Shown piece by piece: positions 1,737-60,840 of a DNA stretch of 64,000 bases; position 1 is the first letter of the stretch; every line of letters begins with the position of its first letter. The position numbers and the translations under genes were made by a program. The notes under the pieces were generated by a model that worked only from the letters and a program-made list of their open reading frames with translations, did no database searches and was not told where the DNA came from. This stretch comes from a virus (Duplodnaviria; Caudoviricetes), in the IMG/VR virus record IMGVR_UViG_3300022921_001344, positions 413 to 64,412 of that record; one strand, given 5' to 3'.

Positions 1737-1737
1737 G

Positions 1738-6724: not shown

Positions 6725-7914
6725 GTAAGTATTTTTGTCCAATGCCGTTTGTAAATTTAGAAGCCAGAACTGATGGCTCAATGTCTATCTGCTGTCAAAT
6801 GGATGAGCTAATCAGTAAAGACGGCCAAAATTTATCTCTTACACACGATGTATTAACCGACGGCTGGAGAAGTGAATGGTTAGCAAATTTAAGAAAAGAT
6901 TTTTTAGATGGTAAAAAACCTGCTTCTTGCTACAGTTGTTGGACTGCCGAGGATGCCGGAATAGACAGTAAACGTCAGAGAGCATTGAGAGACTTCCCTA
7001 CAGCATTAGAAGAAGCATTGGAAAAGAAAGAACACATTAAACCAAAATCTATGGATTTAAAACTTGGTAATGTATGTAATAATAAATGTAGAATTTGTAA
7101 TAGTTTTGCAAGTAGTCTATGGGTACCAGAAGAGAAAAAACGAGATGGTACAAACAATTTGTTTTGGGATAGAATGCGTACAGTGGGTAGATGGCCAGAA
7201 ACAAATGAGGCATTTTGGGAAGACTTTGAAGAACTTAGTGATGACTTAGAAGTATTAGAATTTTATGGCGGTGAACCATTATTAATAAAAAGACATTATG
7301 ATATTTTACAGGATTTAGTTGATTCCGGTAAAAGTAAAGATATAAAATTATTGTATAATACAAATGGTTCAATATATCCTGAGAGAGGATTAGAACTATG
7401 GCCTCACTTTAAACAAGTAATGTTAAGTTGGAGTTTTGATGGAGTAGGAGAGCAATTTGAATACATAAGGCATCCTGCTAAATGGAACGAGGTACAAGAA
7501 AATTTACAAAAAGTATTAGATAAAAATATACCAAATATATTTGTAGACATATGCTATACTGTGGGAATCTTTAACATTTTTTATATGGAAGAAATTTTAG
7601 AATGGAGGGACAATTTTAAACCAGATCTTCCTATATATTTTAATCATGTTTATACGCCAGATCATTTTAGTTGCAAGGTATTACCTAAAGAAATAAAAGA
7701 TAAAATTGTAGACAAGTATAAAGATAATACACATCCTGACATTGTGAGTTCTGTTAAATATTGTACAGATGTAGATTATGATGTAAGTCTTATGGAAATG
7801 TTCTATAAACAGGTTAAGTTTAGTGATGAATTTAGAGGAGAAAATTTTGCTAAAACTTTTCCAGAATTTTATAATTTATTAAAAGAATATGGTAATGCAC
7901 CGGAGGACTTTTAA
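6721..7914 (+). CDS. Radical SAM protein with N-terminal Twitch/SPASM-like domain
   Basis: CPMPF..ICC..CYSC, CNNKCRIC, GGEP. Confidence 0.9.
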   Translation: MSKYFCPMPFVNLEARTDGSMSICCQMDELISKDGQNLSLTHDVLTDGWRSEWLANLRKDFLDGKKPASCYSCWTAEDAGIDSKRQRALRDFPTALEEALEKKEHIKPKSMDLKLGNVCNNKCRICNSFASSLWVPEEKKRDGTNNLFWDRMRTVGRWPETNEAFWEDFEELSDDLEVLEFYGGEPLLIKRHYDILQDLVDSGKSKDIKLLYNTNGSIYPERGLELWPHFKQVMLSWSFDGVGEQFEYIRHPAKWNEVQENLQKVLDKNIPNIFVDICYTVGIFNIFYMEEILEWRDNFKPDLPIYFNHVYTPDHFSCKVLPKEIKDKIVDKYKDNTHPDIVSSVKYCTDVDYDVSLMEMFYKQVKFSDEFRGENFAKTFPEFYNLLKEYGNAPEDF

Positions 7915-8537
7915 TGGATAAATTAATTTTAAAGTCTAAACTTAATAATAAACAACAACATATTTTGGGTAATATTTTTGATTCTAATTTATACGAAGAC
8001 TGGATTTATTATGATGAATCAGAAGCAAATAAAGATATTAAATCTACTGTTGAAGCAAGGGGAAGAAAATATCTAAACTTAAATGATATAGACAATAAGG
8101 AATTACAATCCGTATTAACAGAAATAAAAAAAGAATTATTTGAATCTAATGGATTTGATGAGTCAAAATTTAAATTGATAGAGATTGATGAAGGAAAGGG
8201 TTTATACCCTACTATGCTTTCGTGTATATATAAAGTTGATGGACTACCTAATCATGGTGTACACACTCATAAAGACTGGAGAGGTGCAAATGACGAAATG
8301 CAGGTAAGATTTAATTATCTTGTCAGGAAACCGGAAGAAGGGGGAGAACCTGTAATTAATAGAAGAGTAATTGATTTACAGGAGAAAGAAGGTATGGTAC
8401 TTTTTGCATCAGAATGGCTACATGCAGGTATGCCAGTAGAAGGTAGCAAAACAAGAATATTATTAAGTATTGGTTATCTTGTTGAAAACGAATATGCACA
8501 GGAATTAGAAAAGAGATTTAATTATGGAAGAATATAG
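7914..8537 (+). CDS. 2OG-Fe(II) oxygenase superfamily protein
   Basis: HKD (HxD), EGGEP, distal H (WLHAG) and R (KTRILLS). Confidence 0.75.
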   Translation: MDKLILKSKLNNKQQHILGNIFDSNLYEDWIYYDESEANKDIKSTVEARGRKYLNLNDIDNKELQSVLTEIKKELFESNGFDESKFKLIEIDEGKGLYPTMLSCIYKVDGLPNHGVHTHKDWRGANDEMQVRFNYLVRKPEEGGEPVINRRVIDLQEKEGMVLFASEWLHAGMPVEGSKTRILLSIGYLVENEYAQELEKRFNYGRI

Positions 8538-9831
8538 TAAAACATTTTGTCCTTATCCTTGGATATCGATAATGACTCAACCTACTGGTACTGTTAGTTG
8601 GTGTTGTGTTGCGAGAGACAATTTTAAAAATGATGACAACACTATGTTCGACCTTAATAAGGGAGACAAAATAGAATCTGTCTGGAATAACAATCATATG
8701 CGTAAAATCCGTAAGCAAATGATAGAAGGCGATGTGGTAAAAGGTTGCGAACATTGTTATGATTTAGAAGATATGGGTTTTCCTAGTTATAGAACAAACT
8801 ATATCAGAGACTGGTTTGAATATAGCGGAAGAGGAGAGGAAATACATGAGATTATAGAACGCAGTATAAACAACGACTATAAAGTAGAAGAATCTCCAAT
8901 GTACTTGGATTTTAGGTTAGGCAATATGTGTAACCTGAAGTGTAGAATGTGTCAACCTCAAAATTCAAGTCAAATACAAAAAGAATATAAAAAAATAGAA
9001 ACTGCTGATCCAATGGCAGGAAAATTTATTAAGGACAATTTCACCTGGGGTCAATTTGTTGATCACTTAACGCCATGGCAAGATGATCCGGAGTTTCTGC
9101 GTCAAGTAGAAGAATGGTTACCCAGTGTTAGTAAATTATATTTCACTGGAGGAGAGCCAACTATTATAGAACGTGTATATTGGATCATGGAAAAATGTGT
9201 TGAAATGGGTATAGCCCAAAATATTGAATTGGTATTTAATAGTAATATGACTAACGTTCAAGGAAGATTTTTAAATTTAGTAGAGCAGTTTAAAAATGTT
9301 TTAATGTGTATAAGTGTTGATGCATACGGCAAAGAAAACGAATATATCCGTGGGGCGAGCCATTGGAAACAAGTAGATAAAAATATTAGAAAATATTGTG
9401 AAAGTGAAGTTGTAGGTAGAATTTTATTTTCACCAGTAATACAAGTTTATAATATTTTAACAATTACTAAATTATTAGATTACTGTGAAGAATTAGAAGA
9501 AGAATACGGTAGAGAAATTTTTGTTACGTTTTTAATATGTGATTATCCAACAAGTTTAGATTTTAGAATCTGTCCGGAGCAAGTTAGAGAAGTTGCGGCA
9601 GGAAGATTAGAGCAATGGCTTAAACGCAGTAAAGTACTTGTAAACAGGCCTGAAAATGTACAAAGTATAGAAGCAACAATAAAGGCATTAAAAGAAAATC
9701 GTAAAGAGAATTGGAGACAAGAATTAAAGACTTTTCAAAAGTATACAAATTTATTAGACAAGCAAAGAGACGAATGCATGGAAGATGCATTACCGGAATT
9801 ATATAGATTAATGTATCAATCAAATAGGTAA
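8524..9831 (+). CDS. Radical SAM protein with N-terminal Twitch/SPASM-like domain
   Basis: CPYPW..WCC..CEHC, CNLKCRMC, GGEP. Confidence 0.9.
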   Translation: MEEYSKTFCPYPWISIMTQPTGTVSWCCVARDNFKNDDNTMFDLNKGDKIESVWNNNHMRKIRKQMIEGDVVKGCEHCYDLEDMGFPSYRTNYIRDWFEYSGRGEEIHEIIERSINNDYKVEESPMYLDFRLGNMCNLKCRMCQPQNSSQIQKEYKKIETADPMAGKFIKDNFTWGQFVDHLTPWQDDPEFLRQVEEWLPSVSKLYFTGGEPTIIERVYWIMEKCVEMGIAQNIELVFNSNMTNVQGRFLNLVEQFKNVLMCISVDAYGKENEYIRGASHWKQVDKNIRKYCESEVVGRILFSPVIQVYNILTITKLLDYCEELEEEYGREIFVTFLICDYPTSLDFRICPEQVREVAAGRLEQWLKRSKVLVNRPENVQSIEATIKALKENRKENWRQELKTFQKYTNLLDKQRDECMEDALPELYRLMYQSNR

Positions 9832-9835
9832 TATT

Positions 9836-9958
9836 ATGGAAGAAAATAAAGATAAAAAAGAAATTAATGATGAATTAGAATTGACTCCTGAAGAGGAAGA
9901 ACAACTAAAAAAGAAATTAGAAGAATTAAGAAAAAGAGACCCTTTTATATATAGATGA
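9836..9958 (+). CDS. 40-aa peptide MEENKDKKEINDELELTPEEEEQLKKKLEELRKRDPFIYR (absent from ORF track)
   Basis: Translated by hand. Fills the gap exactly, and its TGA overlaps the carbamoyltransferase ATG (ATGA). Confidence 0.75.
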   Translation: MEENKDKKEINDELELTPEEEEQLKKKLEELRKRDPFIYR

Positions 9959-11469
9959 GAATATTAGGTTTAAGTTTTGGATTTCATGATGCAGGAGTCT
10001 GTATGCTTGATAACGAAACCATAGAATTTGCAAGTCATAGTGAAAGATATAGTAAAATAAAAAACGATCCTTGGCTAAACCATGAAATAATTGCAGATGC
10101 TATTGCAGGCGGTAAACCTGATGTTATAGTCTTACATGAAAAAGCATGGGCCAAACGTGCAAGAAATATATATGCAGGTAATTGGTCGGCATTCAAGGAA
10201 CCTACACAAACAGAATGGATTAAAAAGTTTTATCCAGAACTAAAAGATATACCTATTGTAGATTATTGGCATCACGAAACACATGCGGCCGCAGGTGTAC
10301 TAACAAGCAAGTTTGATAATGCAACGGTAATGGTTATAGATGCTATAGGAGAATTTGATACTGCAACTATTTGGGATTGGAATTGTGGTATACTAGAAAA
10401 GAAAGATAGTGTAAAGTTTCCTAACAGTATAGGATTATTTTATAGTGCCATAACAGCTCTAGTTGGATTGAAACCAATGGAAGATGAATATATACTTATG
10501 GGCATGGCCGCATACGGTGAACCTAAGTATGCCAAATATTTAGAAAAAACTTTGTTTAAAAACAACACATTAAAAACAAGAAAAAATTTACAAAGAGGAT
10601 TACCAAAGAATTTTTTAAATAGAGATCAATACACTACAGTAGATGAATTTGGGCATACAAAAATAGACTACGATATAGCCGCAAGTGCTCAAAAAGTAGT
10701 AGAAGATAAAGTTATGGCATACGCCAGAAAAGCAAAAAAGATTGCAAAACACAAAAATTTAGTTTTTATGGGTGGTGTATCATTAAATTGTGTAGCAAAT
10801 AGTTTGTTACATAATCTTTTTGATAACATTTATATAATGCCTAACCCGGGTGACTGCGGAAGTAGTTTAGGGGCGGCGGCATTGTATCTGTATAACGAAA
10901 CAGGCAAGTTAGTTAATTGGCATGATCCATATTTAGGATATAATATAGAGGGTAAATATCCTATTGAAAAATCACTAGAAAGTTTAAGAGCGGGGGAAAT
11001 ATTTGGTATAGCGAATGGTAGAGCAGAATTTGGGCCTAGAGCATTAGGTAATAGGACATTGTGTTCCGATCCTAGAGGAAGTACAATTAAGGACAAAATG
11101 AATGTTATTAAAAAACGACAAAAGTTTAGACCATTTGCACCAATGATTTTAGAGGAGCATGTACACGAATATTTTGAAATGCCAGGAGGTATTTCACATG
11201 CACCTTACATGCAGTTTGTAGCAAAGTGCAAAAAGCCAGAAGAGTTTCCTGCCATTGTACATAAAGACGGAACAAGTCGAGTACAAACAGTTAGACGCAG
11301 TGAACACCCTGAATTACATAAATTATTAACTCTCTTTTACAAAGAAACTGGTTGCCCTATGCTTGTAAATACAAGTTTAAATATTAAGGGTCAACCTATA
11401 GTTAATGACGAAAAAGATGCAGAAACATTTGCAAAGCATTACGGAGTAAAAGTACATGTCAGAGATTAA
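9955..11469 (+). CDS. O-carbamoyltransferase (NodU/CmcH/TobZ family)
   Basis: HDAG, ERYSKIK, HHETHA, DAIGE, GGVSLNCVAN, EFGPRALGNR, FRPFAP, DGTSRVQTV, NTSLN. Confidence 0.95.
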   Translation: MRILGLSFGFHDAGVCMLDNETIEFASHSERYSKIKNDPWLNHEIIADAIAGGKPDVIVLHEKAWAKRARNIYAGNWSAFKEPTQTEWIKKFYPELKDIPIVDYWHHETHAAAGVLTSKFDNATVMVIDAIGEFDTATIWDWNCGILEKKDSVKFPNSIGLFYSAITALVGLKPMEDEYILMGMAAYGEPKYAKYLEKTLFKNNTLKTRKNLQRGLPKNFLNRDQYTTVDEFGHTKIDYDIAASAQKVVEDKVMAYARKAKKIAKHKNLVFMGGVSLNCVANSLLHNLFDNIYIMPNPGDCGSSLGAAALYLYNETGKLVNWHDPYLGYNIEGKYPIEKSLESLRAGEIFGIANGRAEFGPRALGNRTLCSDPRGSTIKDKMNVIKKRQKFRPFAPMILEEHVHEYFEMPGGISHAPYMQFVAKCKKPEEFPAIVHKDGTSRVQTVRRSEHPELHKLLTLFYKETGCPMLVNTSLNIKGQPIVNDEKDAETFAKHYGVKVHVRD

Positions 11470-45160: not shown

Positions 45161-46473
45161 TCGCCTTTTCTTTCATAAGGTACAGTTATACCAAACGGTG
45201 ATTCGGGTGTTTTGCCTCCATATCCACCTCCATGTACAATAAACAATGTATCACAGTAAGTTTCGTCTCCCCAACTGCCCCAAGGATAACCATCTGTAAA
45301 CATCACAAACTTCTTAGGTTGTATGCCTTCTTCTTTCATGTAATCAAAACAGCAATCAAATTCAGTACCACCGCCACCGGCTAATTCGTACTCCATAAAA
45401 TCACCCATATCAGTTTCAGTAAATACTTTAGGATTATGAACCTCAGTATCAAAACAGAATAAATGAATTTTAAAATCAGTATATTGATCCATAATACCTT
45501 TAACTTCACTTAAAAAGTCTCTAGCCATAGCATCATCAATAGACCCTGACATATCTAATGCTAATGCAATATCTATTGTTGTTTCTCTATCTAATCCTGG
45601 TAAATAGAATCCGTCATTTAAACCCTTTCTACTTGGATTCATCCAGGTATAGTCACTTTTAACAACACTCTGTATTTGCATAGCAAGTAACTGTCTCCAG
45701 TCTAATTGTGGATTTATTAAATGGTCTAGTAATCTTTTAACACCACTTGGTAAGTTACCAGCACCAGCCGCCTTTGCGGCTTGCATAGTAGCATTCTGGA
45801 ACTCTTGTTTAATTTGTTCCTTTTCTTCAGCAGTATATTTTTCAGGACCTTTACTGGCTTCCCCTTCTGTGTTTCCCTCTGCTCCTTCACCTGAACCAGG
45901 GTCGTCTCCTTCTTCTCTATCTATATGTATATCCAAAGTAGTTTCAATAATTTGTCCGTTCTTTTCCATTTCTTCAAATAATTGATCGTATATTTCTTCA
46001 GATACCATACCCCTGTATTTCCAATCATGACATATTTGCACTAATTTAATTTCTTCACCAACACGACCATCTATAAGATCTGCATTAATAACATAGTCGT
46101 TTGCAATATTCCAAAGTACAGGGTGTCTGTCGCCACGTCTATCAGCATCCATATGATCATATACACAATGTAATACTTCATGCCCAACAAGGAATACAAG
46201 TTCCTGATCTGATAATGCGGCAATAAAATTTTTGTTATAATAGAAATATTTGCCGTCAGTTGCGGCAGTAGGACACCATTCTGTAGCATCTTTAAGTAAA
46301 AGTCTAGTAGCAAGATTACCAAAGAAAGGTGCTGACATAAGCATTTCTATTCTGGCTTTGATAATTCTATCTACAATTTCTTCGTTTGATAATGTAGTTT
46401 CTGGTATTTCGACAGATAATTTAGGTGCTCTATCTGATGCATTACCTTTTGCTTTAACTTTTGTATCTGTCAT
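45157..46473 (-). CDS. DUF2201-type metallopeptidase-like plus VWA domain protein
   Basis: TAATDG, HEVLH (HExxH), WNIA.D..IN, MIDAS DMSGS, GGGGT.F, FTDGY. Confidence 0.9.
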   Translation of the reverse strand: MTDTKVKAKGNASDRAPKLSVEIPETTLSNEEIVDRIIKARIEMLMSAPFFGNLATRLLLKDATEWCPTAATDGKYFYYNKNFIAALSDQELVFLVGHEVLHCVYDHMDADRRGDRHPVLWNIANDYVINADLIDGRVGEEIKLVQICHDWKYRGMVSEEIYDQLFEEMEKNGQIIETTLDIHIDREEGDDPGSGEGAEGNTEGEASKGPEKYTAEEKEQIKQEFQNATMQAAKAAGAGNLPSGVKRLLDHLINPQLDWRQLLAMQIQSVVKSDYTWMNPSRKGLNDGFYLPGLDRETTIDIALALDMSGSIDDAMARDFLSEVKGIMDQYTDFKIHLFCFDTEVHNPKVFTETDMGDFMEYELAGGGGTEFDCCFDYMKEEGIQPKKFVMFTDGYPWGSWGDETYCDTLFIVHGGGYGGKTPESPFGITVPYERKGE

Positions 46474-47135: not shown

Positions 47136-47191
47136 GTGTCCATTATACTAGTATTTTGATAAAAAGTCAAGCAAATTTGTTAAATAGTAGT

Positions 47192-47782
47192 ATGGCAATA
47201 AAAAAACATACAGTTTTCCCAAACTACTTATTTGAAAAACAACTTATTTTACCAGAAGAAGTTAAAGAATCTTTGCTATCAGAAAGAAACGAAATATCCA
47301 AAGCAGGTTCAACTATAGAAACAAATTTTGGTTGGGCAACAAATAAGGAATACCCATTAGGAAAGGGACATCAGAAACTTTGTAAACTTGTTAGCCATCA
47401 TTTCATAAGTGAGTGCGATAGCATTCTACCAACAAAGACAAATAATGTTCAAGTATGTAATCCGTATATGTTAAGTATATCACCAGGGCACTCATATAAT
47501 GTAAATATAGAACCCATGAGATGGTATAATGCATTATTCTTTTTACAAACAACAGATAAAGGTTCGCATTTGTATCTAAATAATTTTAGTGAAAAATTAT
47601 ATGCACAACAAAACACACAGGAATCTACCTTTGTTGTAAAACCTAAAACAAATAAAGTTGTTTATTTTCCAAGCCATTTACCATGGGGTATGTCAGCAAA
47701 TATGAGTATGATAGACACGGTAGTACTTTGTTTGACGTTTAGAATTGCTGTCAAAGAACCAGACCCCTCAAGAAAAAATTAG
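47192..47782 (+). CDS. TIGR02466-like 2OG oxygenase-fold protein, metal ligands apparently lost
   Basis: FP start, TN.GW, P....VVYFPS.L pattern; canonical His residues not seen. Confidence 0.5.
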   Translation: MAIKKHTVFPNYLFEKQLILPEEVKESLLSERNEISKAGSTIETNFGWATNKEYPLGKGHQKLCKLVSHHFISECDSILPTKTNNVQVCNPYMLSISPGHSYNVNIEPMRWYNALFFLQTTDKGSHLYLNNFSEKLYAQQNTQESTFVVKPKTNKVVYFPSHLPWGMSANMSMIDTVVLCLTFRIAVKEPDPSRKN

Positions 47783-47784
47783 AT

Positions 47785-47808
47785 AAGAGGGCCGAAGCCC
47801 CCTTAAAT
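47785..47808. terminator. Hairpin between convergent genes
   Basis: AAGAGGGC-CGAA-GCCCCCTT. Confidence 0.55.
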
Positions 47809-47813
47809 TTACC

Positions 47814-47963
47814 TTAAGGATAGTAAGGATTATCTGTAATATATGCAGGTAACTCGCTTTTCTTACTTTCTCTAATACTGTTTTTCACATTATTAGTTAA
47901 GTGTTTTTCCTTAAGAGATTTTTTGACTGCTCTTATAAAGAGCCTTGATTGATATTTAGTCAT
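47814..47963 (-). CDS. 49-aa basic peptide downstream of tandem riboswitch aptamers
   Basis: MTKYQSRLFIRAVKKSLKEKHLTNNVKNSIRESKKSELPAYITDNPYYP; AAGGAG RBS. Confidence 0.7.
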   Translation of the reverse strand: MTKYQSRLFIRAVKKSLKEKHLTNNVKNSIRESKKSELPAYITDNPYYP

Positions 47964-47984
47964 GTCATCTCCTTTTACAAAGAT

Positions 47985-48032
47985 GCGTTCCTTCGGTATC
48001 ATTACCTACTTCCGTCTGTTTCCAGATGAACG
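47985..48032 (-). ncRNA. Glutamine riboswitch (glnA motif) aptamer 2
   Basis: CGUUCA-[UCUG GAAA CAGA]-CGGAAGUA-[GGUA AUGA UACC]-GAAGGAACGC matches the three-way-junction/E-loop consensus. Confidence 0.85.
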
Positions 48033-48040
48033 TAATTAAT

Positions 48041-48099
48041 GCGTTCCTTCGTCACAATTGACTACTTCCGTTCACTGCTACATTTAGAGTGAATGAACG
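48041..48099 (-). ncRNA. Glutamine riboswitch (glnA motif) aptamer 1
   Basis: CGUUCA-[UUCACU...AGUGAA]-CGGAAGUA-[GUCA AUUG UGAC]-GAAGGAACGC. Confidence 0.85.
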
Positions 48100-48144
48100 A
48101 ATGTAACTTGCGTTACATATATTATTTATGTTTTTAGAGTCAAA

Positions 48145-48170
48145 AGAAAGGGCCTAATTAGGCCCCTTCT
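48145..48170 (-). terminator. Intrinsic terminator after the fibre gene
   Basis: AAGGGGCC/GGCCCTTT hairpin followed by a U-rich tract on the minus strand. Confidence 0.7.
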
Positions 48171-48193
48171 AAAGTTTTTATACTAACTTACCG

Positions 48194-51100
48194 TTATACA
48201 AAGTTATAATGTACACTTGCAGTCATAGAACCTGCAGTTACCACTGCTGGTGTGCTACCATCTACTTGCATAAATTGTACTTGTACACTTGCGTTTTTAG
48301 TCAGTGTTTGATCACCATCAAGTTCAACAATATATGAACCAGCCGTTGCCGCATCTGCGTCAATTGCCGCTACTATTGTATCACCTGAACCACCATTCTC
48401 TTTAATAAGAATATGGTTAAATGATCCACCACTAAATGCTGTACCTACTTTGAGAACAATTTTTTCAACATAGTATGTTCTGCTTGAAACATTTGGTACT
48501 GTACCAATATCAAAAGTAGAAGCACTACTATCAGCAGTAAATGTACTTCTTAATAAGAGTCCATCACCACCATTGTTATCAACGTAATCTTTTACAGCCG
48601 CTGATGTTGGGATTGTAGTATCGTTATCGTTACTTGCTATTCCGTCTGCTTCGTCAACAAACTTAGTTACTGCAATGCTTTCGCCACTGTCAGTTAAAGT
48701 TCCAAAACTTACAGCACCTGTAAACGTACCAGTTGCACCTGAAATGCTACCAGTTACGTCACCAGTTACGTCACCAATAAAGTTTGCACTTGCTGTAACA
48801 TTGTTAAATGTAACATCGTCACTTGTTGCAACTGCTTGACCAATGCTAACTACACCGGAACCATCAATGCTTACGCCTGTACCACCACTAAAGTGTGCTC
48901 TTACTTCTGCCGCACTAGGGCCTGTATATGTAAGTACACCAGTAGAACTATTGTAAGCAAGACTTCCGTCTCCGCCTGCATCAGTTACACTTATTGCCGC
49001 TCTGGATCTTGCATCTGTATAGTACATTGTACCACTTGATACTGTTGCACTTGGATCTTCTGAAATATCAGCAGTAGTATGATTACTTACATCACTAACT
49101 TGACCAGTAACATCACCAGTTAAGTCACCTTCAAAAGTACTTGCTTTCACATTTTCTGAACCGAAGTCCCACTCTTGGCCTACAGATGTATATAAGATCT
49201 GCTTAATTGTGCCATTTGCGTTTGCTTCGAAACCAGCGTCTGTATTTGCACCATTGCTGTTTACACGGAAGATTGCATCTGCTGTTTCAACAGTAGTTGA
49301 ATTAACAGTAGTCTGCGTACCTTGTACTGTTAAGTTACCAGTAATAATTGCATCACCATTAACATTAACACTTGCAGAAGTAATATCGTCTGATAAGAAA
49401 CTTCCTGTTACTGTTAAGTTGTTGCCAATTGTTACATCATTTGGTAAACCTATAGTTACAGTATCAGTTGCACCAACTACAACGTCTACTTCGTTTGAAG
49501 TACCTTGTATAGTAAGTGTATCACCACCATTAACAGTTTGGTTATTAGAACCGTCTGATAAAGTAAATGATGTACTAATACTTGCGTTTGAAGCCGCTGT
49601 AATTCTACCTTGTTGGTCTATAGTTAGTACTGGAATTTCAGTTGTACTACCATATGTTTTTGGTGTAACCGCTGTATCATCAAGATCAAGTACACCGTTA
49701 GTATAGGTTAAACCTGTACCACCGCTTACTCTTGCATCAACACCAGCATTAAAGTCACTAACTTGTGAATTTGTAATACTGATTGCAACGTTACTTGCAG
49801 ATGTTAATCTACCTTGTGCATCAACTGTAAATGTTCCTACTGAGCCTGCTGAACCATAGTCACCTGCTGTTACGGCAGTATCGTCTAAAGCAACTGATAT
49901 CTCATTACCAGAAGCAGTAGTTGTAATGCCTGTACCACCAGCAATATCAAGAACTTCACTATCTAAATCAATTGATAATGAGGCACCGTTATCTGCTGTA
50001 AAGTCTAAGTCTTGAGCAGTTACCTGTGAGTCAACATATGCTTTAACAGACTGTTGAGTTGGTACTAAAGTAGCACTATCACTAGCCATGTTATCTTCGT
50101 CAACAAAACCAGTAATTGAAATACTTCCGTCACTTAATGAACCATATTGTACAGTACCACTAAATGTACCGTTAGTTGCACCACTTAATGCACCACTACT
50201 TAATGTTGCAGTACCGTCAGTTAATGAACCACCTTCTACTGCACCACTGAATGTAGCCGCAACTCCACCAGTGATAGAACCACTGCTTAATGTTGCTGTA
50301 CCGTCAGTTAATGAACCACCTTCTACTGCACCACTGAATGTTGCACTTACACCTGATGTAATATTACCAGCATTAATACTTAATGTACCATCTGTTAATG
50401 TTCCACCTGTTAAAGTACCAGTACCAGTTACGTTAACCGCACCTGTTAATGACCCACTACTTAATGATGCTGTACCGTCAGTTAATGTTCCTGCTTGTAC
50501 TTGACCACTAAATGTAGCCGCTACCATATTTGTTAAAGTAGTATCTAGGTTAAATGTTGCTGTATCAGTTGCACCAACTACTGAAGTAATGTTTGTACCA
50601 CCTGCTAGTGTTAAAGTGTCGCCACCGTTAACAGTTTGAGTGTTTGAACCATCACTTAGTGTGAAAGAAGTACTAATAGAAGCATTCGATGCCGCTGTTA
50701 TACGTCCTTGTTGGTCTATTGTTAGTACTGGAATTTCTGTTGTACTACCATAAGATTTTGCTGTAACGGCTGTATCGTCTAGGACAATCTCACCACTTGT
50801 TACAGTAATACCTGTACCGCCTGTTACATAACTGTCGATCTTAGTTTCAACTCTTGCATCTGTGTAATACATTGTACCACTTGATACAGTTGCACTTGGA
50901 TCTTCTGAAATGTCAGCAGTAGTGTGATTGCTCACATCACTTACTTGACCAGTTACGTCACCAGTTAAGTCACCTTCAAAAGATGAAGCCTTAACATTCT
51001 CAGAACCAAAGTCCCATTCTGTGCCAGCCGCTGTGTAAAGAATTTGTTTTACACCACTTGCAGTATTGGCTTCAAAACCAGCATCGGTGTTTGCACCATT

Positions 51101-52159
51101 GCTGTTAGTTCTAAAGATAGCATCAGCAGTTTCAACTGTTGTTGAATTAACTGTTGTTTGAGTACCTTGTACAGTTAAGTTACCAGTAATTGTTGCATCA
51201 CCATCAATGCTAATAGCACTAGATGTGATATCATCAGATAAGAAACTTCCTGTTACTGTTAAGTTGTTTCCAACGGTAACATCATTTGGTAAACCAATTT
51301 GTACTTGGTTGTTTGTTACAGCAGTTTCAATTTCATTAGCAGTTCCTACAAATGCTAATGTATCTGTTCCAACTGTTACATTATCTGTACTACTTCCATC
51401 ACCAATTGTTAGTGTTGAACTTGTTGTTGCTGTAGAAACACTTGTGATTCTACCTTTTGCATCAACTGTGATAACTGGAATAGCACTTGAACTACCATAT
51501 GAACCTGCACTTACACCTGAATCAGCAAGTGTTACTGCAATGTTGGCTTGGTCGCCACCATTTGTAAATGTTGCTGAACCTGTTGCATCAGAGCTAAGGT
51601 TAATTGTGACAGCACTTGATAAACCATCTGCTGTACCTGTTAAATTTCCTACAAAGCCGGAATTTGCTGTAATTGTTGTTCCCGTAATTGCCGCCGCACT
51701 ATTGGCTCCAATAACAGTTCCATCGATAGCACCGCCATCAATATCTACTGCGTTAGAGGCCTGTAAAGCCACATTACCTAAACCTAAGTTACTTCTTGCT
51801 CCTGCGGCATCGGTTGCACCCGTACCACCCTGTGCTACTGGAAGTTGACTAGTACTATCAATAAAGTTTGCATTACTTAAAGATATATTACCAGCACTTG
51901 CCGTACCACTTGAAAAACTAACTAGACCTGTTGAGGAACTAAAATCTTGACCAGTACCACCGTATTGTGCACCTATAGACGTCGCTGTCCAACTACCTGA
52001 TGTTACACTACCAAAACGTATGTCTTCTAGTGTTGATCCATCTGATTGTGTTAAATCAAATCGGTTATTACCAGCATCGTATTTTAAACGACCGCCGCTT
52101 TTACCCATTTGGACGTCTGACGCAATACCTTTGATACCAAAGTTTTTAATGTCAGCCAT
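48194..52159 (-). CDS. Large Gly/Ser/Thr-rich virion fibre/structural protein with internal duplications
   Basis: Fibre motifs (VAQGGTGATDAAGARSNLGL, YGS..IPV.T.D..GR.T, GNLTVQGTQTTVNST); late promoter motif at 52233-52240. Confidence 0.8.
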   Translation of the reverse strand: MADIKNFGIKGIASDVQMGKSGGRLKYDAGNNRFDLTQSDGSTLEDIRFGSVTSGSWTATSIGAQYGGTGQDFSSSTGLVSFSSGTASAGNISLSNANFIDSTSQLPVAQGGTGATDAAGARSNLGLGNVALQASNAVDIDGGAIDGTVIGANSAAAITGTTITANSGFVGNLTGTADGLSSAVTINLSSDATGSATFTNGGDQANIAVTLADSGVSAGSYGSSSAIPVITVDAKGRITSVSTATTSSTLTIGDGSSTDNVTVGTDTLAFVGTANEIETAVTNNQVQIGLPNDVTVGNNLTVTGSFLSDDITSSAISIDGDATITGNLTVQGTQTTVNSTTVETADAIFRTNSNGANTDAGFEANTASGVKQILYTAAGTEWDFGSENVKASSFEGDLTGDVTGQVSDVSNHTTADISEDPSATVSSGTMYYTDARVETKIDSYVTGGTGITVTSGEIVLDDTAVTAKSYGSTTEIPVLTIDQQGRITAASNASISTSFTLSDGSNTQTVNGGDTLTLAGGTNITSVVGATDTATFNLDTTLTNMVAATFSGQVQAGTLTDGTASLSSGSLTGAVNVTGTGTLTGGTLTDGTLSINAGNITSGVSATFSGAVEGGSLTDGTATLSSGSITGGVAATFSGAVEGGSLTDGTATLSSGALSGATNGTFSGTVQYGSLSDGSISITGFVDEDNMASDSATLVPTQQSVKAYVDSQVTAQDLDFTADNGASLSIDLDSEVLDIAGGTGITTTASGNEISVALDDTAVTAGDYGSAGSVGTFTVDAQGRLTSASNVAISITNSQVSDFNAGVDARVSGGTGLTYTNGVLDLDDTAVTPKTYGSTTEIPVLTIDQQGRITAASNASISTSFTLSDGSNNQTVNGGDTLTIQGTSNEVDVVVGATDTVTIGLPNDVTIGNNLTVTGSFLSDDITSASVNVNGDAIITGNLTVQGTQTTVNSTTVETADAIFRVNSNGANTDAGFEANANGTIKQILYTSVGQEWDFGSENVKASTFEGDLTGDVTGQVSDVSNHTTADISEDPSATVSSGTMYYTDARSRAAISVTDAGGDGSLAYNSSTGVLTYTGPSAAEVRAHFSGGTGVSIDGSGVVSIGQAVATSDDVTFNNVTASANFIGDVTGDVTGSISGATGTFTGAVSFGTLTDSGESIAVTKFVDEADGIASNDNDTTIPTSAAVKDYVDNNGGDGLLLRSTFTADSSASTFDIGTVPNVSSRTYYVEKIVLKVGTAFSGGSFNHILIKENGGSGDTIVAAIDADAATAGSYIVELDGDQTLTKNASVQVQFMQVDGSTPAVVTAGSMTASVHYNFV
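49007..51295 (-). repeat. Internal duplication of about 148 aa (about 49007-49450 vs about 50852-51295)
   Basis: GLPNDVT...GTMYYTDAR occurs twice, nearly identical. A second block of about 58 aa (LDDTAVT..GGDTLT) is also duplicated. Confidence 0.85.
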
Positions 52160-58034: not shown

Positions 58035-58679
58035 TTAAATTCTTTCTATGTATTCAATTTGCTGTATGATGTCATCATAACATAGTTTAAGAAAAGGAAC
58101 ATGTTCGTCAAACTCTTCTTTACTGCAATAAAGGTAATTAGAAAAATAACTGTAATTTGTTACATAATTTGAATACCATTGTTTATTTTCAAAATTATTA
58201 TCAATATATTCTATAAAATTTTTAATAGTATCAATGTATTCAGAGCCTGTATTCATATTATGAATAGATAATTTTACATTATACTTTCCATAAAATAATT
58301 TAGGCCTAAAAATATTTTTTATTTTATATCTAGATGGGTCTTTTTTGATTAATACATTAAAATGTGTTTCAGTTACAGGCCCAAAAACTTTTATTACATG
58401 TGTACCATATACATCTAAAAATTTATTTAGAGCATCTTTATTTCTAAAATAGACTCGGAAATTTTTAGAGGAAAATTTTGGTTTAAAGTCTTGATAGGAA
58501 AAATTATCATACAACCAAGAATTTATTTCTGTTATAAGTTTTATATCGTAAAATACATCATTGCCTGGCATGTCAACTCTATAAAAATAATAATCATAAT
58601 AAACTTTATCAGAAGGCTCTAAGTTACAAGTATCCTTACTTAAAATAAAATCCTTACTTTGCAACAACGTATTCATCAT
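58035..58679 (-). CDS. Hypothetical protein
   Basis: ORF overlapping the clpA stop. Confidence 0.6.
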   Translation of the reverse strand: MMNTLLQSKDFILSKDTCNLEPSDKVYYDYYFYRVDMPGNDVFYDIKLITEINSWLYDNFSYQDFKPKFSSKNFRVYFRNKDALNKFLDVYGTHVIKVFGPVTETHFNVLIKKDPSRYKIKNIFRPKLFYGKYNVKLSIHNMNTGSEYIDTIKNFIEYIDNNFENKQWYSNYVTNYSYFSNYLYCSKEEFDEHVPFLKLCYDDIIQQIEYIERI

Positions 58680-60840
58680 CTATATAATCAACAGTAAGTG
58701 ATACATCTTTAAGATCTTCAAATAATATCTTTTTACTTAGTGGCTTTTTAACCTTATCCTCAAATAATCTTTTTAATGGTCTTGCACCCATAGTAGGCTC
58801 ATATCCATCTTCAGATAATTGTTTAATAGCATTCTTTGTAGCAATAATTTTAATACCTGATTTATTTTCTTGTAGTAATTCATTGGTTTCTTTGATAAGC
58901 CTTTTAACAATTTTAACCATAAGTGTTGGCTCTAACTTATTAAATGTTACTGTAGCATCTAATCTGTTTCTAAATTCAGGTGAGAAGAATTTATTTACAG
59001 CAGAACTAATTGCTTTAGTTTTTGTTTGATCTCCAAAACCTATTTTGAGACTTTCGGCATCTGTGGCTCCTAAGTTAGAAGTCATTAATAATATTACATT
59101 GGTAAAATCTACAACTTTGCCTGTTGCACCTGTAAGTCTACCATCGTCCATTACTTGTAGCAACACTTGTAATACTTCTGGTGCGGCTTTCTCTACTTCA
59201 TCTAGTAGCAACACACAATTAGGATTCTCTTCTACTTCAGCAAGTAATTGTCCTTGCCCCATCTTACCTTCAGCATGTCCTACATATCCTGGAGGGGCAC
59301 CAATCAGTTTACTTACACTATGACGTTCTTGATATTCACTCATATCAAATTTAACCAATTTACTCTCCATTTCTTTTGCAAGAGTCTTTGCTGTTTCTGT
59401 TTTACCTGTACCTGTAGGTCCAACTAATAAAAAACTTCCTATAGGTTTATTTGTTTCTCGTAATCCGGATTTACTTACAATTACTGATTCAACAATTTTA
59501 TCAATTGCTTCGTCCTGCCCAAATACAGTTTGTTTCATTCTGTAATCCAAACTTTTAAATGAATCTGTTTTTTCAATATCTATTACCTCTGTGCCTATTT
59601 TAGATATTTTAGAAACAACTGCAACAATATCTTTTATGTCCACGTTTTTATCGTTCCTGAGCTTCACAGACGCTCCTGCGGCGTCTATAACATCTAATGC
59701 CTTATCAGGGAAGTATTTGTTTTTAATATATCTATCACATAATTCTACAGATTTTATGATTGTATCTTTATTATAAGTTACCTTATGAAACTCCTCGTAT
59801 TGTGATTTTAAACCTAAACATATTTCTTTGGTTTCATCTACAGATGTTTCCTCTATATCAATCCTTGCAAATCTACGCATTAAGGCTCTATCTTTCTCAA
59901 AACTATTTGCAAATTCATCTGGTGTTGTTGCACCTATAGTTAAAAGTCTACCACTACCTAATACAGGCTTTAATATATTTGCAACGTCAACACTTCCATT
60001 ACCTGTGCTACCTGCACCCATAATCATGTGTATTTCATCTATAAACAATACTGCATCAGGTGTCTTTTCTAATGTTTTAAGTAACTGCTTAATCCTTTCC
60101 TCAAAGTCACCTCTGTACCTAGTGCCGGCAAGTAAATCAGAAACATTTAAACTATATACAATTTTGTTTTTTAATAACTTAGGAACATCACCATCAACAA
60201 TACGTTTTGCAAGTCCTTCTGCTATTGCTGTTTTACCAACACCAGGTTCACCTACAAGCACACAGTTATTTTTCTTACGTCTAGCAAGTATGTGAACTAA
60301 ATCACTTACTTCTTCAGCTCTACCAATAAGTGGGTCTATCCTTTTGTCCAATGCTTCTTGATTTAAATTCTTTGTAAATTCTTGTAAAATTTCTTTGGAT
60401 TTTTTTGCAACATGAGAATTTTCAAAATAATTTACAATCACTGCTTTTTCTAATCCATTTAGTTCACAATAATACTTTGCATAGGATTCGTTTTGACTTA
60501 ATACACTTAACAGCATATCCATAGGTTCTATAATATCTTTTCCTCTAAAAACAGCATTTGCTAAGGCTCTTTGAATGACTTCCTCTACACCAACAGTTCT
60601 TCTAGGAGCACCTTTAGAACCGTTCTGAGGTATTAAATCGTTTTCTTTAGAAGTTAAATAAGTTTCTAAATCTGATTTTATAAGATCGGATTCTATTTCC
60701 ATATCATTACAAATCTTTTTGACCTGTGTATTGTCAAGTAACATGTACATCACATGTTCAACTGTAACGTATTCATGATTTTGTCTTAAAGCATAATCCA
60801 TTGCTTTTTGTAAAATATTTTCTATTGCTTTGTAATCCAT
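58654..60840 (-). CDS. clpA: ATP-dependent Clp protease ATP-binding subunit ClpA
   Basis: Clp N-domain (HEYVTVEH), GEPGVGKT and GPTGTGKT Walker A motifs, GAPPGYVG, IGF loop, no ClpB middle domain. Confidence 0.92.
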   Translation of the reverse strand: MDYKAIENILQKAMDYALRQNHEYVTVEHVMYMLLDNTQVKKICNDMEIESDLIKSDLETYLTSKENDLIPQNGSKGAPRRTVGVEEVIQRALANAVFRGKDIIEPMDMLLSVLSQNESYAKYYCELNGLEKAVIVNYFENSHVAKKSKEILQEFTKNLNQEALDKRIDPLIGRAEEVSDLVHILARRKKNNCVLVGEPGVGKTAIAEGLAKRIVDGDVPKLLKNKIVYSLNVSDLLAGTRYRGDFEERIKQLLKTLEKTPDAVLFIDEIHMIMGAGSTGNGSVDVANILKPVLGSGRLLTIGATTPDEFANSFEKDRALMRRFARIDIEETSVDETKEICLGLKSQYEEFHKVTYNKDTIIKSVELCDRYIKNKYFPDKALDVIDAAGASVKLRNDKNVDIKDIVAVVSKISKIGTEVIDIEKTDSFKSLDYRMKQTVFGQDEAIDKIVESVIVSKSGLRETNKPIGSFLLVGPTGTGKTETAKTLAKEMESKLVKFDMSEYQERHSVSKLIGAPPGYVGHAEGKMGQGQLLAEVEENPNCVLLLDEVEKAAPEVLQVLLQVMDDGRLTGATGKVVDFTNVILLMTSNLGATDAESLKIGFGDQTKTKAISSAVNKFFSPEFRNRLDATVTFNKLEPTLMVKIVKRLIKETNELLQENKSGIKIIATKNAIKQLSEDGYEPTMGARPLKRLFEDKVKKPLSKKILFEDLKDVSLTVDYIDDEYVVAK

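What the first reader, a model, noticed from the sequence alone, without database searches (positions are those of the whole stretch)
47814..48130. Tandem glutamine (glnA-type) riboswitch aptamers controlling a 49-aa basic phage peptide
Seen: two aptamers 8 nt apart share CGUUCA, CGGAAGUA and GAAGGAACGC but have different, fully paired P2/P3 stems, which is covariation within one locus. A late-type promoter (CATAAATA, 48123-48130) and a 5' hairpin (48101-48118) precede them. They are followed by AUCUUU-GUAAAA-GGAGAU, which could mask the RBS of a small Lys/Arg-rich ORF. Established: glnA-motif RNAs bind L-glutamine and often occur in tandem; in cyanobacteria one controls gifB, encoding the basic glutamine synthetase inactivator IF17. 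Inference: the phage senses host nitrogen status and expresses a peptide that may modulate glutamine synthetase or infection timing.
Basis: partly seen in the sequence, partly recalled or inferred. Interest (0 to 1): 0.82.

Follow-up and report, generated by a model that had tools for sequence, protein, structure and literature searches.

The report
Phage glutamine riboswitches controlling small peptide
A large marine phage carries two back-to-back glutamine-sensing RNA switches that appear to control a tiny conserved protein copied from small-genome marine bacteria, so the phage probably reads its host's nitrogen status, but what the protein does is still unknown.

Summary
Two Rfam RF01739 glutamine aptamers lie on the minus strand at 48101-48038 (55.2 bits) and 48034-47982 (57.8 bits); the cut-off is 35.

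They sit in a self-contained unit:
- a phage-type promoter motif and a 5' hairpin;
- the two aptamers;
- a hairpin that pairs the tail of aptamer 2 with the Shine-Dalgarno sequence;
- a 49-aa ORF (47963-47814) and a terminator.

The ORF is a real gene. It has at least 30 homologue clusters with invariant N- and C-terminal motifs, and dN/dS is 0.15-0.45.

The tail-to-SD helix recurs, with compensatory changes, in 80 of 118 sampled viral glutamine riboswitches.

The contig is a jumbo-phage fragment, not an evident cyanophage.

The cassette also lies on chromosomes of one order of small-genome Gammaproteobacteria, in 9 of 121 genomes searched. There it has a sigma-70-like promoter and a 61-nt aptamer 1 identical to the phage's. 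The phage copy therefore looks like a captured host gene with a swapped promoter.

The peptide matches no known family, including DUF4278/IF17. The proposed role as a glutamine synthetase modulator remains an untested hypothesis.

The parts
48140..48170 (-). Intrinsic terminator of the upstream 1321-aa fibre-like gene (48194-52159). It isolates the cassette from read-through.
   Evidence: An 11-bp G+C-rich stem followed by a U run, -17.8 kcal/mol, z -3.4; sequence.
48123..48130 (-). Phage promoter-like motif CATAAATA, one mismatch from the T4 late consensus TATAAATA (consensus recalled from memory).
   Evidence: ATAAATA occurs 19 times in the window. Nine occurrences are intergenic although about 96.5% of the window is coding in my crude gene set, and each of the nine lies 6-121 nt upstream of a same-strand gene start. 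Syntenic relatives have TATAAATA at the same place. Cellular copies have a sigma-70-like TTAGACA-17-TTAATAT there instead.
48102..48117 (-). 5'-terminal hairpin of the predicted transcript: 6 bp with a 4-nt loop.
   Evidence: -5.2 kcal/mol, z -4.3. Present with changed but still pairing stems in L003 and L006/L007, absent in L008-L011. Function is inferred (5'-end protection).
48038..48101 (-). Glutamine riboswitch aptamer 1 (type 1, RF01739), with a long P2 hairpin.
   Evidence: 55.2 bits, full length. Its 61-nt core is 61/61 identical in three bacterial chromosomes and 60/61 in a fourth, while the ORF is only 76-81 of 149 columns identical.
47982..48034 (-). Glutamine riboswitch aptamer 2 (type 1, RF01739). 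Its 3' tail starts the expression platform.
   Evidence: 57.8 bits, full length. P2 varies with compensatory changes among relatives: CUG/CAG, CUC/GAG, CUA/UAG, CCU/AGG, CCC/GGG.
47966..47985 (-). SD-sequestering hairpin. The aptamer-2 tail CAUCUUU pairs with GGAGAUG, which contains the Shine-Dalgarno GGAG at 47972-47969.
   Evidence: -6.3 kcal/mol, z -2.7, and kept in the MFE fold of the whole leader. Relatives keep it through changes on both sides: L008 CAAUCUU/GAGAUUG, L011 CAUCUC/GAGAUG, L068 a longer interrupted helix. Survey.
47814..47963 (-). 49-aa basic peptide gene (P0001), the product controlled by the switch.
   Evidence: Translation. Family alignments A1, A3 and A5. dN/dS 0.15-0.45 in 21 pairwise comparisons. 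30 clusters in a profile search of 1.84 billion representatives. In L003 an in-frame TAG four codons upstream of the conserved ATG excludes the longer 62-aa reading.
47774..47805 (-). Intrinsic terminator ending the monocistronic unit. The next gene (47156-47782, +) is convergent.
   Evidence: A 9-bp stem with 5 G-C pairs and a UUCG loop, then a T-rich tail; -14.5 kcal/mol, z -3.3.

Best explanation
This is a self-contained, host-derived regulatory cassette in a jumbo-type marine or estuarine phage.

Proposed mechanism:
1. A phage-type promoter (CATAAATA) drives a short transcript that starts with a small hairpin.
2. Two tandem type-1 glutamine aptamers follow.
3. The tail of the second aptamer, including the C directly after P1, pairs with the Shine-Dalgarno sequence in the ligand-free state.
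4. When L-glutamine binds, that C is drawn into the aptamer's long-range pair. The SD hairpin opens and the 49-aa basic, mostly helical peptide is translated. This makes it a translational ON switch.
5. The tandem arrangement should make the response steeper.
6. A terminator ends the unit, so the peptide is the only output.

The cassette also exists on chromosomes of one order of small-genome marine Gammaproteobacteria, behind a sigma-70-like promoter. Phages of several lineages appear to have captured it and exchanged the promoter.

The peptide belongs to a new small-protein family with the motifs MTKYQ..RAVKK..LPxYITDNP[FY]YP. It most likely acts in trans on a host protein linked to nitrogen status.

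What is shown: the aptamers, the hairpin and its covariation, the conservation of the ORF, and the cellular homologues.
What is inferred: glutamine binding, ON polarity, late timing, direction of gene transfer, and the peptide's target.
For: - Aptamers: two full-length RF01739 matches at 55.2 and 57.8 bits.
- Association: tandem RF01739 precedes the peptide gene in 8 of 8 related viral loci that hold upstream DNA, and in L030, L083, L127 and L129; L068 has a single aptamer.
- SD hairpin: it folds in isolation and in the full leader and is kept by compensatory changes.
- Survey: among 118 sampled viral glutamine aptamers, a tail helix of >=5 bp occurs in 92 and overlaps an SD-like word in 80. 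With the tail shuffled the figures are 36% and 24%. The pairs covary: CACCT/GGGTG 28, CACTT/GAGTG 12, CACTT/AAGTG 10, CATCT/AGATG 6.
- Published model: this matches the model for the Synechocystis gifB riboswitch, an experimentally shown ON switch in which C68 and the following bases pair with the RBS (PMC6212724, sections 15 and 19 read).
- The ORF is a gene: M1, T2, P39, Y41, N45, P46 and Y48 are invariant across 35 sequences. dN/dS is 0.15-0.45 with dS up to 0.9. AF2 predicts helix 3-21 with block-mean pLDDT 90-95.
- Single output: terminators on both sides and a convergent neighbour.
- Promoter motif: 9 of 19 ATAAATA sites are intergenic and upstream of genes.
- Cellular origin: the peptide occurs in 9 of 121 genomes of one gammaproteobacterial order. 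In 8 of 8 with upstream DNA it lies directly behind tandem RF01739 hits. One copy is at 1.57 Mb on a single contig. Conserved neighbours are seen in six of the nine cellular loci. The promoter is sigma-70-like and aptamer 1 is identical to the phage's. The peptide was found in 0 of 400 other genomes sampled across the class.
- Presence in RNA libraries: metatranscriptome contigs from three studies match the leader and ORF with 0-3 differences. This shows presence only, not transcription.
Against: - No experiment or computation here shows glutamine binding, ON polarity or translation.
- Thermodynamic folding of the whole leader does not reproduce the aptamer junction. This is usual for this class but gives no independent support.
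- The ATAAATA motif also precedes small genes next to the DNA polymerase gene, so 'late' is not established.
- RNA-library contigs can contain DNA and cannot show transcript ends.
- The direction of transfer (cell to phage) rests on synteny and promoter type, not on a rooted tree.
- The host of this phage is unknown. The same cassette also sits in HTVC008M/Melnitz-like contigs.
Confidence: 0.78

Rival explanations
1. One reading: the peptide is a functional analogue of the cyanobacterial glutamine synthetase inactivating factors IF7/IF17. Made when glutamine is high, it binds and inhibits host GS.
For: - Same logic as gifB: a type-1 glutamine riboswitch plus a small basic protein (PMC6212724).
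- In the gammaproteobacterial order, RF01739 otherwise precedes GS (468 aa), a 326-aa GS-like protein, and GOGAT.
- The 8 peptide-bearing genomes with upstream DNA have no other RF01739 hit above cut-off, and none of the other 49 riboswitch-bearing genomes has the peptide. This looks like two alternative wirings of the same feedback.
- Some family members carry one copy of the [ILV]YRG[VI] unit typical of DUF4278.
- L125 joins the same aptamer P2 sequence to a YRG peptide.
Against: - Pfam DUF4278 does not match the window's peptide or any of 13 family members, including the two YRG-bearing members L083 and L011 tested again. By contrast, 8 of 8 viral YRG peptides tested do match.
- hhalign gives 0.2% probability.
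- The window's own peptide lacks YRG.
- DUF4278 is the part of IF17 not shown to bind GS; Prochlorococcus IF17-like proteins lack the GS-binding C-terminus (PMC6212724).
- The complementary distribution may simply reflect different clades within the order.
Confidence: 0.25
2. The switch is an OFF switch: glutamine binding stabilises a fold that keeps or makes the SD inaccessible, so the peptide is made under nitrogen limitation.
For: Polarity was not tested here. In the same bacterial order the aptamer precedes GS and GOGAT genes, where repression by glutamine would be the expected logic, so the class may work in both directions.
Against: The hairpin's 5' strand begins with the tail C directly after P1. 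In the published structural model this C is captured on ligand binding, melting the adjoining helix, and the gifB representative with the same layout is ON in vivo (PMC6212724). The GS-linked representatives use a different tail.
Confidence: 0.12
3. The small ORF is not the functional output. Either the RNA itself acts (for example as a glutamine-dependent regulatory RNA), or the ORF is a leader peptide that controls a downstream gene.
For: The 61-nt aptamer 1, including its long P2 loop, is invariant between phage and cell copies whose ORFs are only about 52% identical at the DNA level. This suggests an extra constraint on the RNA.
Against: The peptide's ends are invariant over 35 sequences and dN/dS is well below 1. 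A strong terminator follows the ORF and the next gene is convergent. The cassette keeps the ORF in at least four different genomic contexts.
Confidence: 0.07

Closest known systems
Type-1 glutamine riboswitch in the gifB (IF17) 5' UTR of Synechocystis sp. PCC 6803 (Klahn et al. 2018, PMC6212724; abstract and sections 15 and 19 read)
   Same: Same Rfam family. The aptamer tail pairs with the ribosome-binding site. The regulated product is a small basic protein. The expected logic is glutamine-ON.
   Different: Here there are two aptamers in tandem. The product is not DUF4278. The promoter is phage-type rather than NtcA-regulated. The genome is a jumbo-type phage, and the cellular counterpart is in heterotrophic Gammaproteobacteria, whereas the paper states that the class is exclusive to cyanobacteria among sequenced genomes.
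glnA RNA motif, tandem arrangements, in marine metagenomes (Weinberg et al. 2010, PMC2864571; passages read)
   Same: Tandem aptamers and a marine origin. That paper reports association with GS, GOGAT, PII and ammonium transporters; GS and GOGAT were found again here in the gammaproteobacterial order.
   Different: The passages read do not describe this peptide family. The paper's Additional File 1, which may list downstream peptides, could not be opened.
Glutamine riboswitch of Methylophilales phage Melnitz and pelagimyophages (Buchholz et al. 2022, PMC9004378; passages read)
   Same: An RF01739 aptamer in myophages of streamlined marine heterotrophs. The window's cassette also occurs in an HTVC008M/Melnitz-like contig.
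   Different: That paper assigns the switch to the tmRNA gene. In the Melnitz record the aptamer (46398-46446) lies after the tmRNA and is followed, through the same kind of SD hairpin, by an unannotated 32-aa ORF of a different peptide family.
Glutamine riboswitches listed as non-coding RNA genes of T4-like cyanophages (PMC9964418 and PMC9602691; single passages read)
   Same: A phage-borne RF01739.
   Different: In those passages the element is only mentioned and no output gene is named. The window is not T4-like cyanophage DNA by its best protein matches.
Tandem glycine riboswitch (recalled from memory, not checked here)
   Same: Two aptamers for one ligand share one expression platform, which is thought to sharpen the response.
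   Different: Different fold and ligand. Cooperativity has not been examined for this cassette.

Membership tests
Rfam RF01739 glutamine riboswitch (type 1) | Covariance-model score at or above the gathering score, over the full model | tested here: met
   55.2 and 57.8 bits against 35; model positions 1-53 of 53 for both copies.
Rfam RF01739 glutamine riboswitch (type 1) | Three-stem architecture with conserved junction blocks, and stems that vary by compensatory change | tested here: met
   The CGUUCA, CGGAAGUA and GAAGGAACGC blocks are present. P2 and P3 differ between the two copies and among relatives while staying paired.
Rfam RF01739 glutamine riboswitch (type 1) | Selective binding of L-glutamine | not testable with these tools
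   Needs in-line probing or ITC.
Rfam RF01739 glutamine riboswitch (type 1) | An expression platform that links the aptamer to a downstream gene | tested here: met
   Tail-to-SD hairpin. It is conserved with covariation within the family and across 80 of 118 sampled viral representatives.
DUF4278 / IF17 (gifB) GS-inactivating factor | Match to Pfam PF14105 | tested here: not met
   No hit for P0001, for any of 13 family members at E<=10, or for the YRG-bearing members L083 and L011. As a positive control, 8 of 8 viral YRG peptides hit, 3 of them above the cut-off.
DUF4278 / IF17 (gifB) GS-inactivating factor | Profile-level similarity to YRG-repeat peptides | tested here: not met
   hhalign of A3 against A4: probability 0.2%, 3 aligned columns.
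DUF4278 / IF17 (gifB) GS-inactivating factor | C-terminal IF7-like region with the arginines needed for GS binding | not tested
   No IF7 or IF17 reference sequence was fetched. The requirement itself is taken from PMC6212724.
DUF4278 / IF17 (gifB) GS-inactivating factor | Inhibition of glutamine synthetase | not testable with these tools
   Needs an enzyme assay.
T4-type late promoter | A TATAAATA-like element placed shortly upstream of the transcript start, and used repeatedly by the phage | tested here: inconclusive
   CATAAATA is 21 nt before aptamer 1. Nine of 19 ATAAATA sites are intergenic and 6-121 nt upstream of same-strand genes, several of them fibre-like genes, but others precede small genes beside the DNA polymerase gene. 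Exact TATAAATA is depleted: 5 observed against 13.6 expected. The consensus itself is recalled from memory.
T4-type late promoter | A phage gp55-type late sigma factor | not tested
   Not looked for. The record is only about 18% of the genome.
Host-derived auxiliary gene of a phage | Homologue in cellular chromosomes with conserved cellular synteny and its own cellular promoter | tested here: met
   Found in 9 of 121 genomes of one order. One copy is at 1.57 Mb on a single contig. Zinc-dehydrogenase-like and 5'-nucleotidase-like neighbours recur. The promoter is sigma-70-like.

The most novel reading that the evidence does not exclude
The MTKYQ..YITDNPFYP peptide is the heterotroph counterpart of the cyanobacterial GS-inactivating factors. 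On this reading it is a glutamine-riboswitch-induced small protein that shuts down nitrogen assimilation in an abundant order of streamlined marine Gammaproteobacteria. Within that order, some lineages put the riboswitch directly on GS and GOGAT genes, and others route the signal through this peptide. Jumbo phages and pelagimyophage-like phages have captured the sensor-effector cassette, with an invariant aptamer 1, and re-promoted it to steer host nitrogen metabolism during infection according to the glutamine pool.
Probability: 0.25. Interest if true: 0.8.

Novelty: new variant of a known kind. Interest (0 to 1): 0.6.

Why it matters
Glutamine riboswitches have been described as a cyanobacterial device that controls GS-inactivating factors. 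Phage copies have been noted, but in the papers I could read either no output gene is named or, in one case, the output is assigned to a tmRNA.

This locus makes four points:
- The phage switches have a clear, conserved output: tiny basic proteins behind an SD-masking helix.
- One such protein family is new and under purifying selection.
- The complete sensor-plus-effector cassette is shared between phages and the chromosomes of small-genome heterotrophic Gammaproteobacteria, which also place the same riboswitch on GS and GOGAT genes.
- The phage exchanged only the promoter.

Together these make a concrete question testable: how do phages of nutrient-limited marine bacteria sense and respond to host nitrogen status? 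Short synthetic peptides and RNAs would be enough to start.

Tried and rejected
- **Nucleotide search in cultured phages.** blastn of 1.2 kb around the locus against 50,697 phage records gave no match. tblastn of the peptide gave only chance-level hits at E=7 in Bordetella phages. So I found no cultured-phage relative.
- **Family and structure libraries for the peptide.** Pfam, PHROGs, NCBIfam, the PDB sequence profile and the ESM Atlas gave nothing usable.
- **Complex prediction.** I ran the peptide alignment with two copies of the GS of the peptide-bearing genome G004. The result was 'no answer' (score 0.00, controls not run). I count it neither for nor against binding.
- **Formal pair count on the SD hairpin.** I aligned nine leaders (A6) but did not run the count, because MAFFT put the L008 and L068 helices out of register. 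I relied on per-sequence folds and my own survey instead.
- **Full-leader MFE.** It keeps the 5' hairpin and the SD hairpin but not the aptamer junctions, so I did not use it as evidence for the aptamer fold.
- **Genome-contig scan.** It used the pattern YI[TR][DE]NP[FY]YP and so missed the cellular YVTDNPFYP forms. It found only one true cellular copy and three weak partial ones. The order-wide profile search replaced it.
- **RNA libraries.** The very high depth over 47966-48071 comes mostly from contigs that run on into unrelated sequence, that is, other organisms' glutamine riboswitches. Stretches without cover (48138-48219 and below 47600 in three runs) prove nothing. Runs listed with small word shares that I did not lay are not used as evidence.
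- **Closed or unavailable sources.** Ames & Breaker 2011 is not held, so what I say about it is recalled. Supplementary Table S2 and Figure S3 of PMC6212724 and Additional File 1 of PMC2864571 may list phage or metagenome representatives and downstream peptides that bear on the novelty claim.
- **Literature searches behind 'not described'.**
- **Correction.** A recount gives 19 with 9 intergenic, and the report uses the recount.
Full report
**Observation.** An Rfam scan of the whole window gives exactly two matches. Both are RF01739 (glutamine riboswitch aptamer), both are on the minus strand, and both span the full model: 48101-48038 (55.2 bits) and 48034-47982 (57.8 bits), against a gathering score of 35. 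The full 64,412-bp record holds no further copy.

**Anatomy, 5' to 3' on the minus strand.**
- Terminator of the upstream 1321-aa fibre-like gene, 48170-48140 (-17.8 kcal/mol).
- CATAAATA, 48130-48123.
- A 6-bp hairpin, 48117-48102 (-5.2 kcal/mol, z -4.3).
- Aptamer 1, then aptamer 2.
- A hairpin at 47985-47966 in which the tail CAUCUUU pairs with GGAGAUG, which contains the SD sequence (-6.3 kcal/mol, z -2.7). It is retained in the MFE fold of the whole leader.
- ATG at 47963, a 49-codon ORF, and a stop at 47816-47814.
- A strong terminator, 47805-47784, with a T-rich tail.

The next gene (47156-47782, 2OG-Fe(II)-oxygenase-like by PHROG) is convergent. The peptide is therefore the only possible protein output of this transcript.

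**The ORF is a gene.**
- A word-indexed search found 10 clusters, and a viral-contig scan found 9 loci.
- A profile search of 1.84 billion representatives found 30 clusters at E<=0.001. Twenty-nine are 38-69 aa long; one is a 273-aa repeat protein that I regard as unrelated.
- Across 35 aligned sequences, M1, T2, P39, Y41, N45, P46 and Y48 are invariant. R11, Y4, L38 and I42 are nearly so. The middle of the protein is free to vary.
- Among seven 49-codon members, all 21 pairwise dN/dS values are 0.15-0.45, with dS up to 0.9.
- Gene callers sometimes extend the ORF to 60-66 aa beginning M-x-PKER (P0002, P0006, P0015, P0019, P0022, P0023). That extension is simply the aptamer's GAAGGAACGC block read in frame. 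In L003 an in-frame TAG excludes it.
- AlphaFold2 with the 35-sequence alignment predicts helix 3-21 (block-mean pLDDT 90-95), a weaker helix 24-34 and a short C-terminal turn. Mean pLDDT is 79.

**Expression platform.**
- Within the family the SD hairpin is kept through changes on both strands. L008 has CAAUCUU/GAGAUUG with a UUCG loop, L011 has CAUCUC/GAGAUG, L003 has an interrupted helix, and L068 has a 10-bp helix interrupted by a 2x2 internal loop, with a GAAA loop. All have z between -3.0 and -3.7.
- To test generality I scanned IMG/VR for the aptamer's three conserved blocks.
- In 115 of the 120, an ATG ORF of 15 or more codons starts within 80 nt by a crude call. Four of the five without one are cut by contig ends, and one uses GTG.
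- Of the 118 with enough downstream sequence, 92 have a helix of 5 bp or more that starts in the first three tail bases, and 80 of those helices overlap an SD-like word. When the eight tail bases are shuffled the figures are 36% and 24%.
- The pairs covary: CACCT/GGGTG 28, CACTT/GAGTG 12, CACTT/AAGTG 10, CATCT/AGATG 6, CGCCT/AGGTG 3.
- This is the arrangement proposed for the Synechocystis gifB switch. There, the C after P1 and the following bases pair with the RBS, glutamine binding captures that C, and the switch is ON in vivo (PMC6212724, section 19).
- I therefore infer a translational ON switch. The polarity is inferred, not shown.

**Promoter.**
- ATAAATA occurs 19 times in the window. 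Nine occurrences are intergenic, although my crude gene set covers 96.5% of the window, so about 0.7 would be expected by chance.
- Each of the nine lies 6-121 nt upstream of a same-strand gene start. Six read GATAAATA, including those before the fibre-like genes at 52159 and 57525.
- Exact TATAAATA is depleted: 5 observed against 13.6 expected.
- Syntenic relatives carry TATAAATA before the cassette.
- The motif is therefore very likely this phage's promoter element. It also precedes small genes near the DNA polymerase gene, so 'late' is only an analogy to T4 (consensus recalled from memory).

**Which phage.**
- The record is an IMG/VR contig estimated at 18% complete, which implies a genome of roughly 350 kb.
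- Its family-B DNA polymerase and its DUF2201 protein match jumbo myophages best: Sinorhizobium phage Phosso, Agrobacterium phage Atu_ph07, the PA5oct group and the RaK2 group, at 38-47% identity.
- G+C content is 31-38%.
- Loci L003, L006/L007/L107 and L127 share synteny with the window: fibre gene, cassette, oxygenase (absent in L003), NT5C-like gene. L008/L047, L010, L011, L030, L068, L083 and L129 hold the cassette in other contexts.
- L047's contig is HTVC008M/Melnitz-like. Others carry tail sheath, portal, or ribonucleotide reductase genes.
- The cassette therefore moves as a unit between phage lineages.

**Cellular counterpart.**
- A pattern scan of GTDB genomes found one true copy, at the end of a contig of a MAG titled 'uncultured Gammaproteobacteria bacterium'. 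It lies beside tRNA-Ile, a 260-aa ORF I read by eye as pssA-like, and ORFs I read by eye as ilvC/H/I-like.
- I inspected the twenty best loci. Fifteen lie upstream of a 468-aa GS, a 326-aa GS-like protein, GOGAT, or a Gcw_chp protein. In the other five my script picked only a short spurious ORF.
- A profile of the peptide family matches 9 of the 121 genomes. In all 8 with upstream DNA it lies 18-27 nt behind a tandem RF01739 pair.
- One copy is at 1.57 Mb on a single contig. Six of the nine loci show a 312-aa zinc-dehydrogenase-like neighbour, and three of those also show a 5'-nucleotidase-like gene.
- In G018 the cassette has TTAGACA-17-TTAATAT ahead of the aptamers, the same SD hairpin, a 46-aa peptide and a similar terminator.
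- Aptamer 1 is 61/61 identical to the window's in three genomes and 60/61 in a fourth. Aptamer 2 is 45-46 of 52 identical, with compensatory P2 changes. The ORF is only 76-81 of 149 columns identical.
- In an even sample across the class, 0 of 400 other genomes have the peptide.
- I conclude that phages captured a host sensor-effector cassette and replaced its promoter. The direction of transfer is inferred from synteny and promoter type.

**Peptide function.**
- No library names the family.
- Viral YRG-repeat peptides found behind other phage aptamers do match DUF4278 (8 of 8 tested, 3 above the cut-off). Family members do not, including those that carry one [ILV]YRG[VI] unit. hhalign between the two groups gives 0.2%.
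- The peptide is therefore not a detectable IF17 relative.
- Two observations keep a nitrogen-assimilation role attractive. First, in the order the riboswitch otherwise controls GS and GOGAT genes. Second, the distribution is complementary: the 8 peptide genomes have no other RF01739 hit above cut-off, and the peptide is absent from the 49 other riboswitch-bearing genomes.
- That pattern could reflect clade structure alone. I put GS inhibition at about 0.25.

**Expression.** Metatranscriptome contigs from three studies match the window's ORF and leader almost exactly: X16 at 47841-47999 with 1 difference, X17 at 47802-47997 with 3, X15 at 47856-47969 with 0, and X16 with exact pieces over 48003-48100. 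This shows that the sequence is present in RNA libraries from salt-marsh, aquatic and freshwater samples. It does not prove transcription or define transcript ends.

**Literature.**
- Phage-borne glutamine riboswitches are known in T4-like cyanophages (PMC9964418 and PMC9602691, passages) and in Melnitz and pelagimyophages (PMC9004378, passages).
- RF01739 in SAR86 MAGs is mentioned in PMC12379486 (passage).
- PMC6212724 states that the class occurs only in cyanobacteria among sequenced genomes, and that the taxonomic affiliation of the metagenomic glnA-linked copies was unknown.
- Five full-text searches found no description of this peptide family, of the phage-cell shared cassette, or of small ORFs as the general output of phage glutamine riboswitches.
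- Supplements and Ames & Breaker 2011 could not be read.

**Verdict.** The riboswitch is an ordinary member of a known class in a setting already reported in outline. The new elements are the output (a new conserved small-protein family), its cellular origin in heterotrophic Gammaproteobacteria, the promoter swap, the jumbo-phage host genome and the invariant aptamer 1. Its functional reading of the peptide remains a hypothesis.

Noticed in passing
L134:1501-1670 (Methylophilales phage Melnitz MZ577097.1, 46398-46570): The Melnitz aptamer lies just after the tmRNA (Rfam tmRNA match ends at L134:1493). It is followed, through a CACUU..GAGUG SD hairpin, by an unannotated 32-aa ORF (MTLYQQWCY...). 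The record instead annotates a 33-aa ORF on the opposite strand. The published reading that the riboswitch controls the tmRNA looks doubtful.
   Followed up: partly
L012-L131 (IMG/VR sample of 120 aptamer loci): Phage glutamine aptamers are almost always followed by tiny basic ORFs. My own regular expressions sort these into at least eight sequence classes:
- YRG/DUF4278-like: 24
- NGxGTSGY: 18
- YCR/EIDNYKK: 12
- NILSxDPRLQ: 10
- xWCF: 9
- WQLVLIK: 7
- the window's family: 7
- MTYRPF: 5
- other: 22
- cut by contig ends: 6
. Some frames are miscalled.
   Followed up: partly
L148-L167 (genomes of the order of G004): In this order of small-genome Gammaproteobacteria, RF01739 (57 of 121 genomes above cut-off) precedes a 468-aa GS, a 326-aa GS-like protein, GOGAT and a Gcw_chp protein. 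These copies have a different tail (..CCGUUAAAC..GUUUAAC..). This contradicts 'exclusive to cyanobacteria', and it may be the taxonomic home of the metagenomic glnA-linked copies.
   Followed up: partly
window 48050-48092 (P2 of aptamer 1) and L168-L172, L011, L127, L125: The long P2 hairpin of aptamer 1 (19-nt core) is letter-for-letter identical in phage and cellular copies whose ORFs have diverged to about 50%. Among all loci held it occurs only with this peptide family, except L125, where it precedes a YRG peptide. The reason for this constraint is unexplained.
   Followed up: partly
L176:1368-1662 and L111/L130: Other riboswitch-controlled peptides share the N-terminal MTK..[FI]K[NA]AVKK..LK helix but have different C-termini. 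This suggests modular evolution of these small proteins.
   Followed up: no
window 372, 21350, 38565, 39214, 40086, 52239, 57563, 58030: [G/N]ATAAATA motifs lie 6-74 nt upstream of gene starts. This is a candidate promoter set for this phage.
   Followed up: partly
window 414-11469 (+): The phage contig opens with a run of same-strand genes that includes a UDP-glucose dehydrogenase-like gene and a Nol-like carbamoyltransferase gene. It may be a sugar-modification module.
   Followed up: no
window 58654-60840 (-): A 728-aa ATP-dependent (Lon-like) protease homologue, phrog_4871, E 2e-245.
   Followed up: no
window 48194-52159 (-): The 1321-aa fibre-like protein contains long internal duplications visible in its translation, for example the ..TIDQQGRITAASNASISTSFTLSDGSN.. 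and ..GNLTVQGTQTTVNSTTVETADAIFR.. blocks, each occurring twice.
   Followed up: no
window 47156-47782 (+): A 2OG-Fe(II)-oxygenase-like gene (phrog_81, E 2e-08) converges on the cassette and shares its terminator region. Two nitrogen-status metabolites (2-oxoglutarate and glutamine) thus meet at one locus. The adjacency is kept in L006/L007/L107 and L127 but not in L003.
   Followed up: no
window 47966-48071 in runs X15-X19: Very high summed depth of RNA-library contigs lies over the conserved aptamer core. Most of these contigs continue into unrelated sequence, so many different glutamine-riboswitch leaders are abundant in these metatranscriptomes.
   Followed up: no
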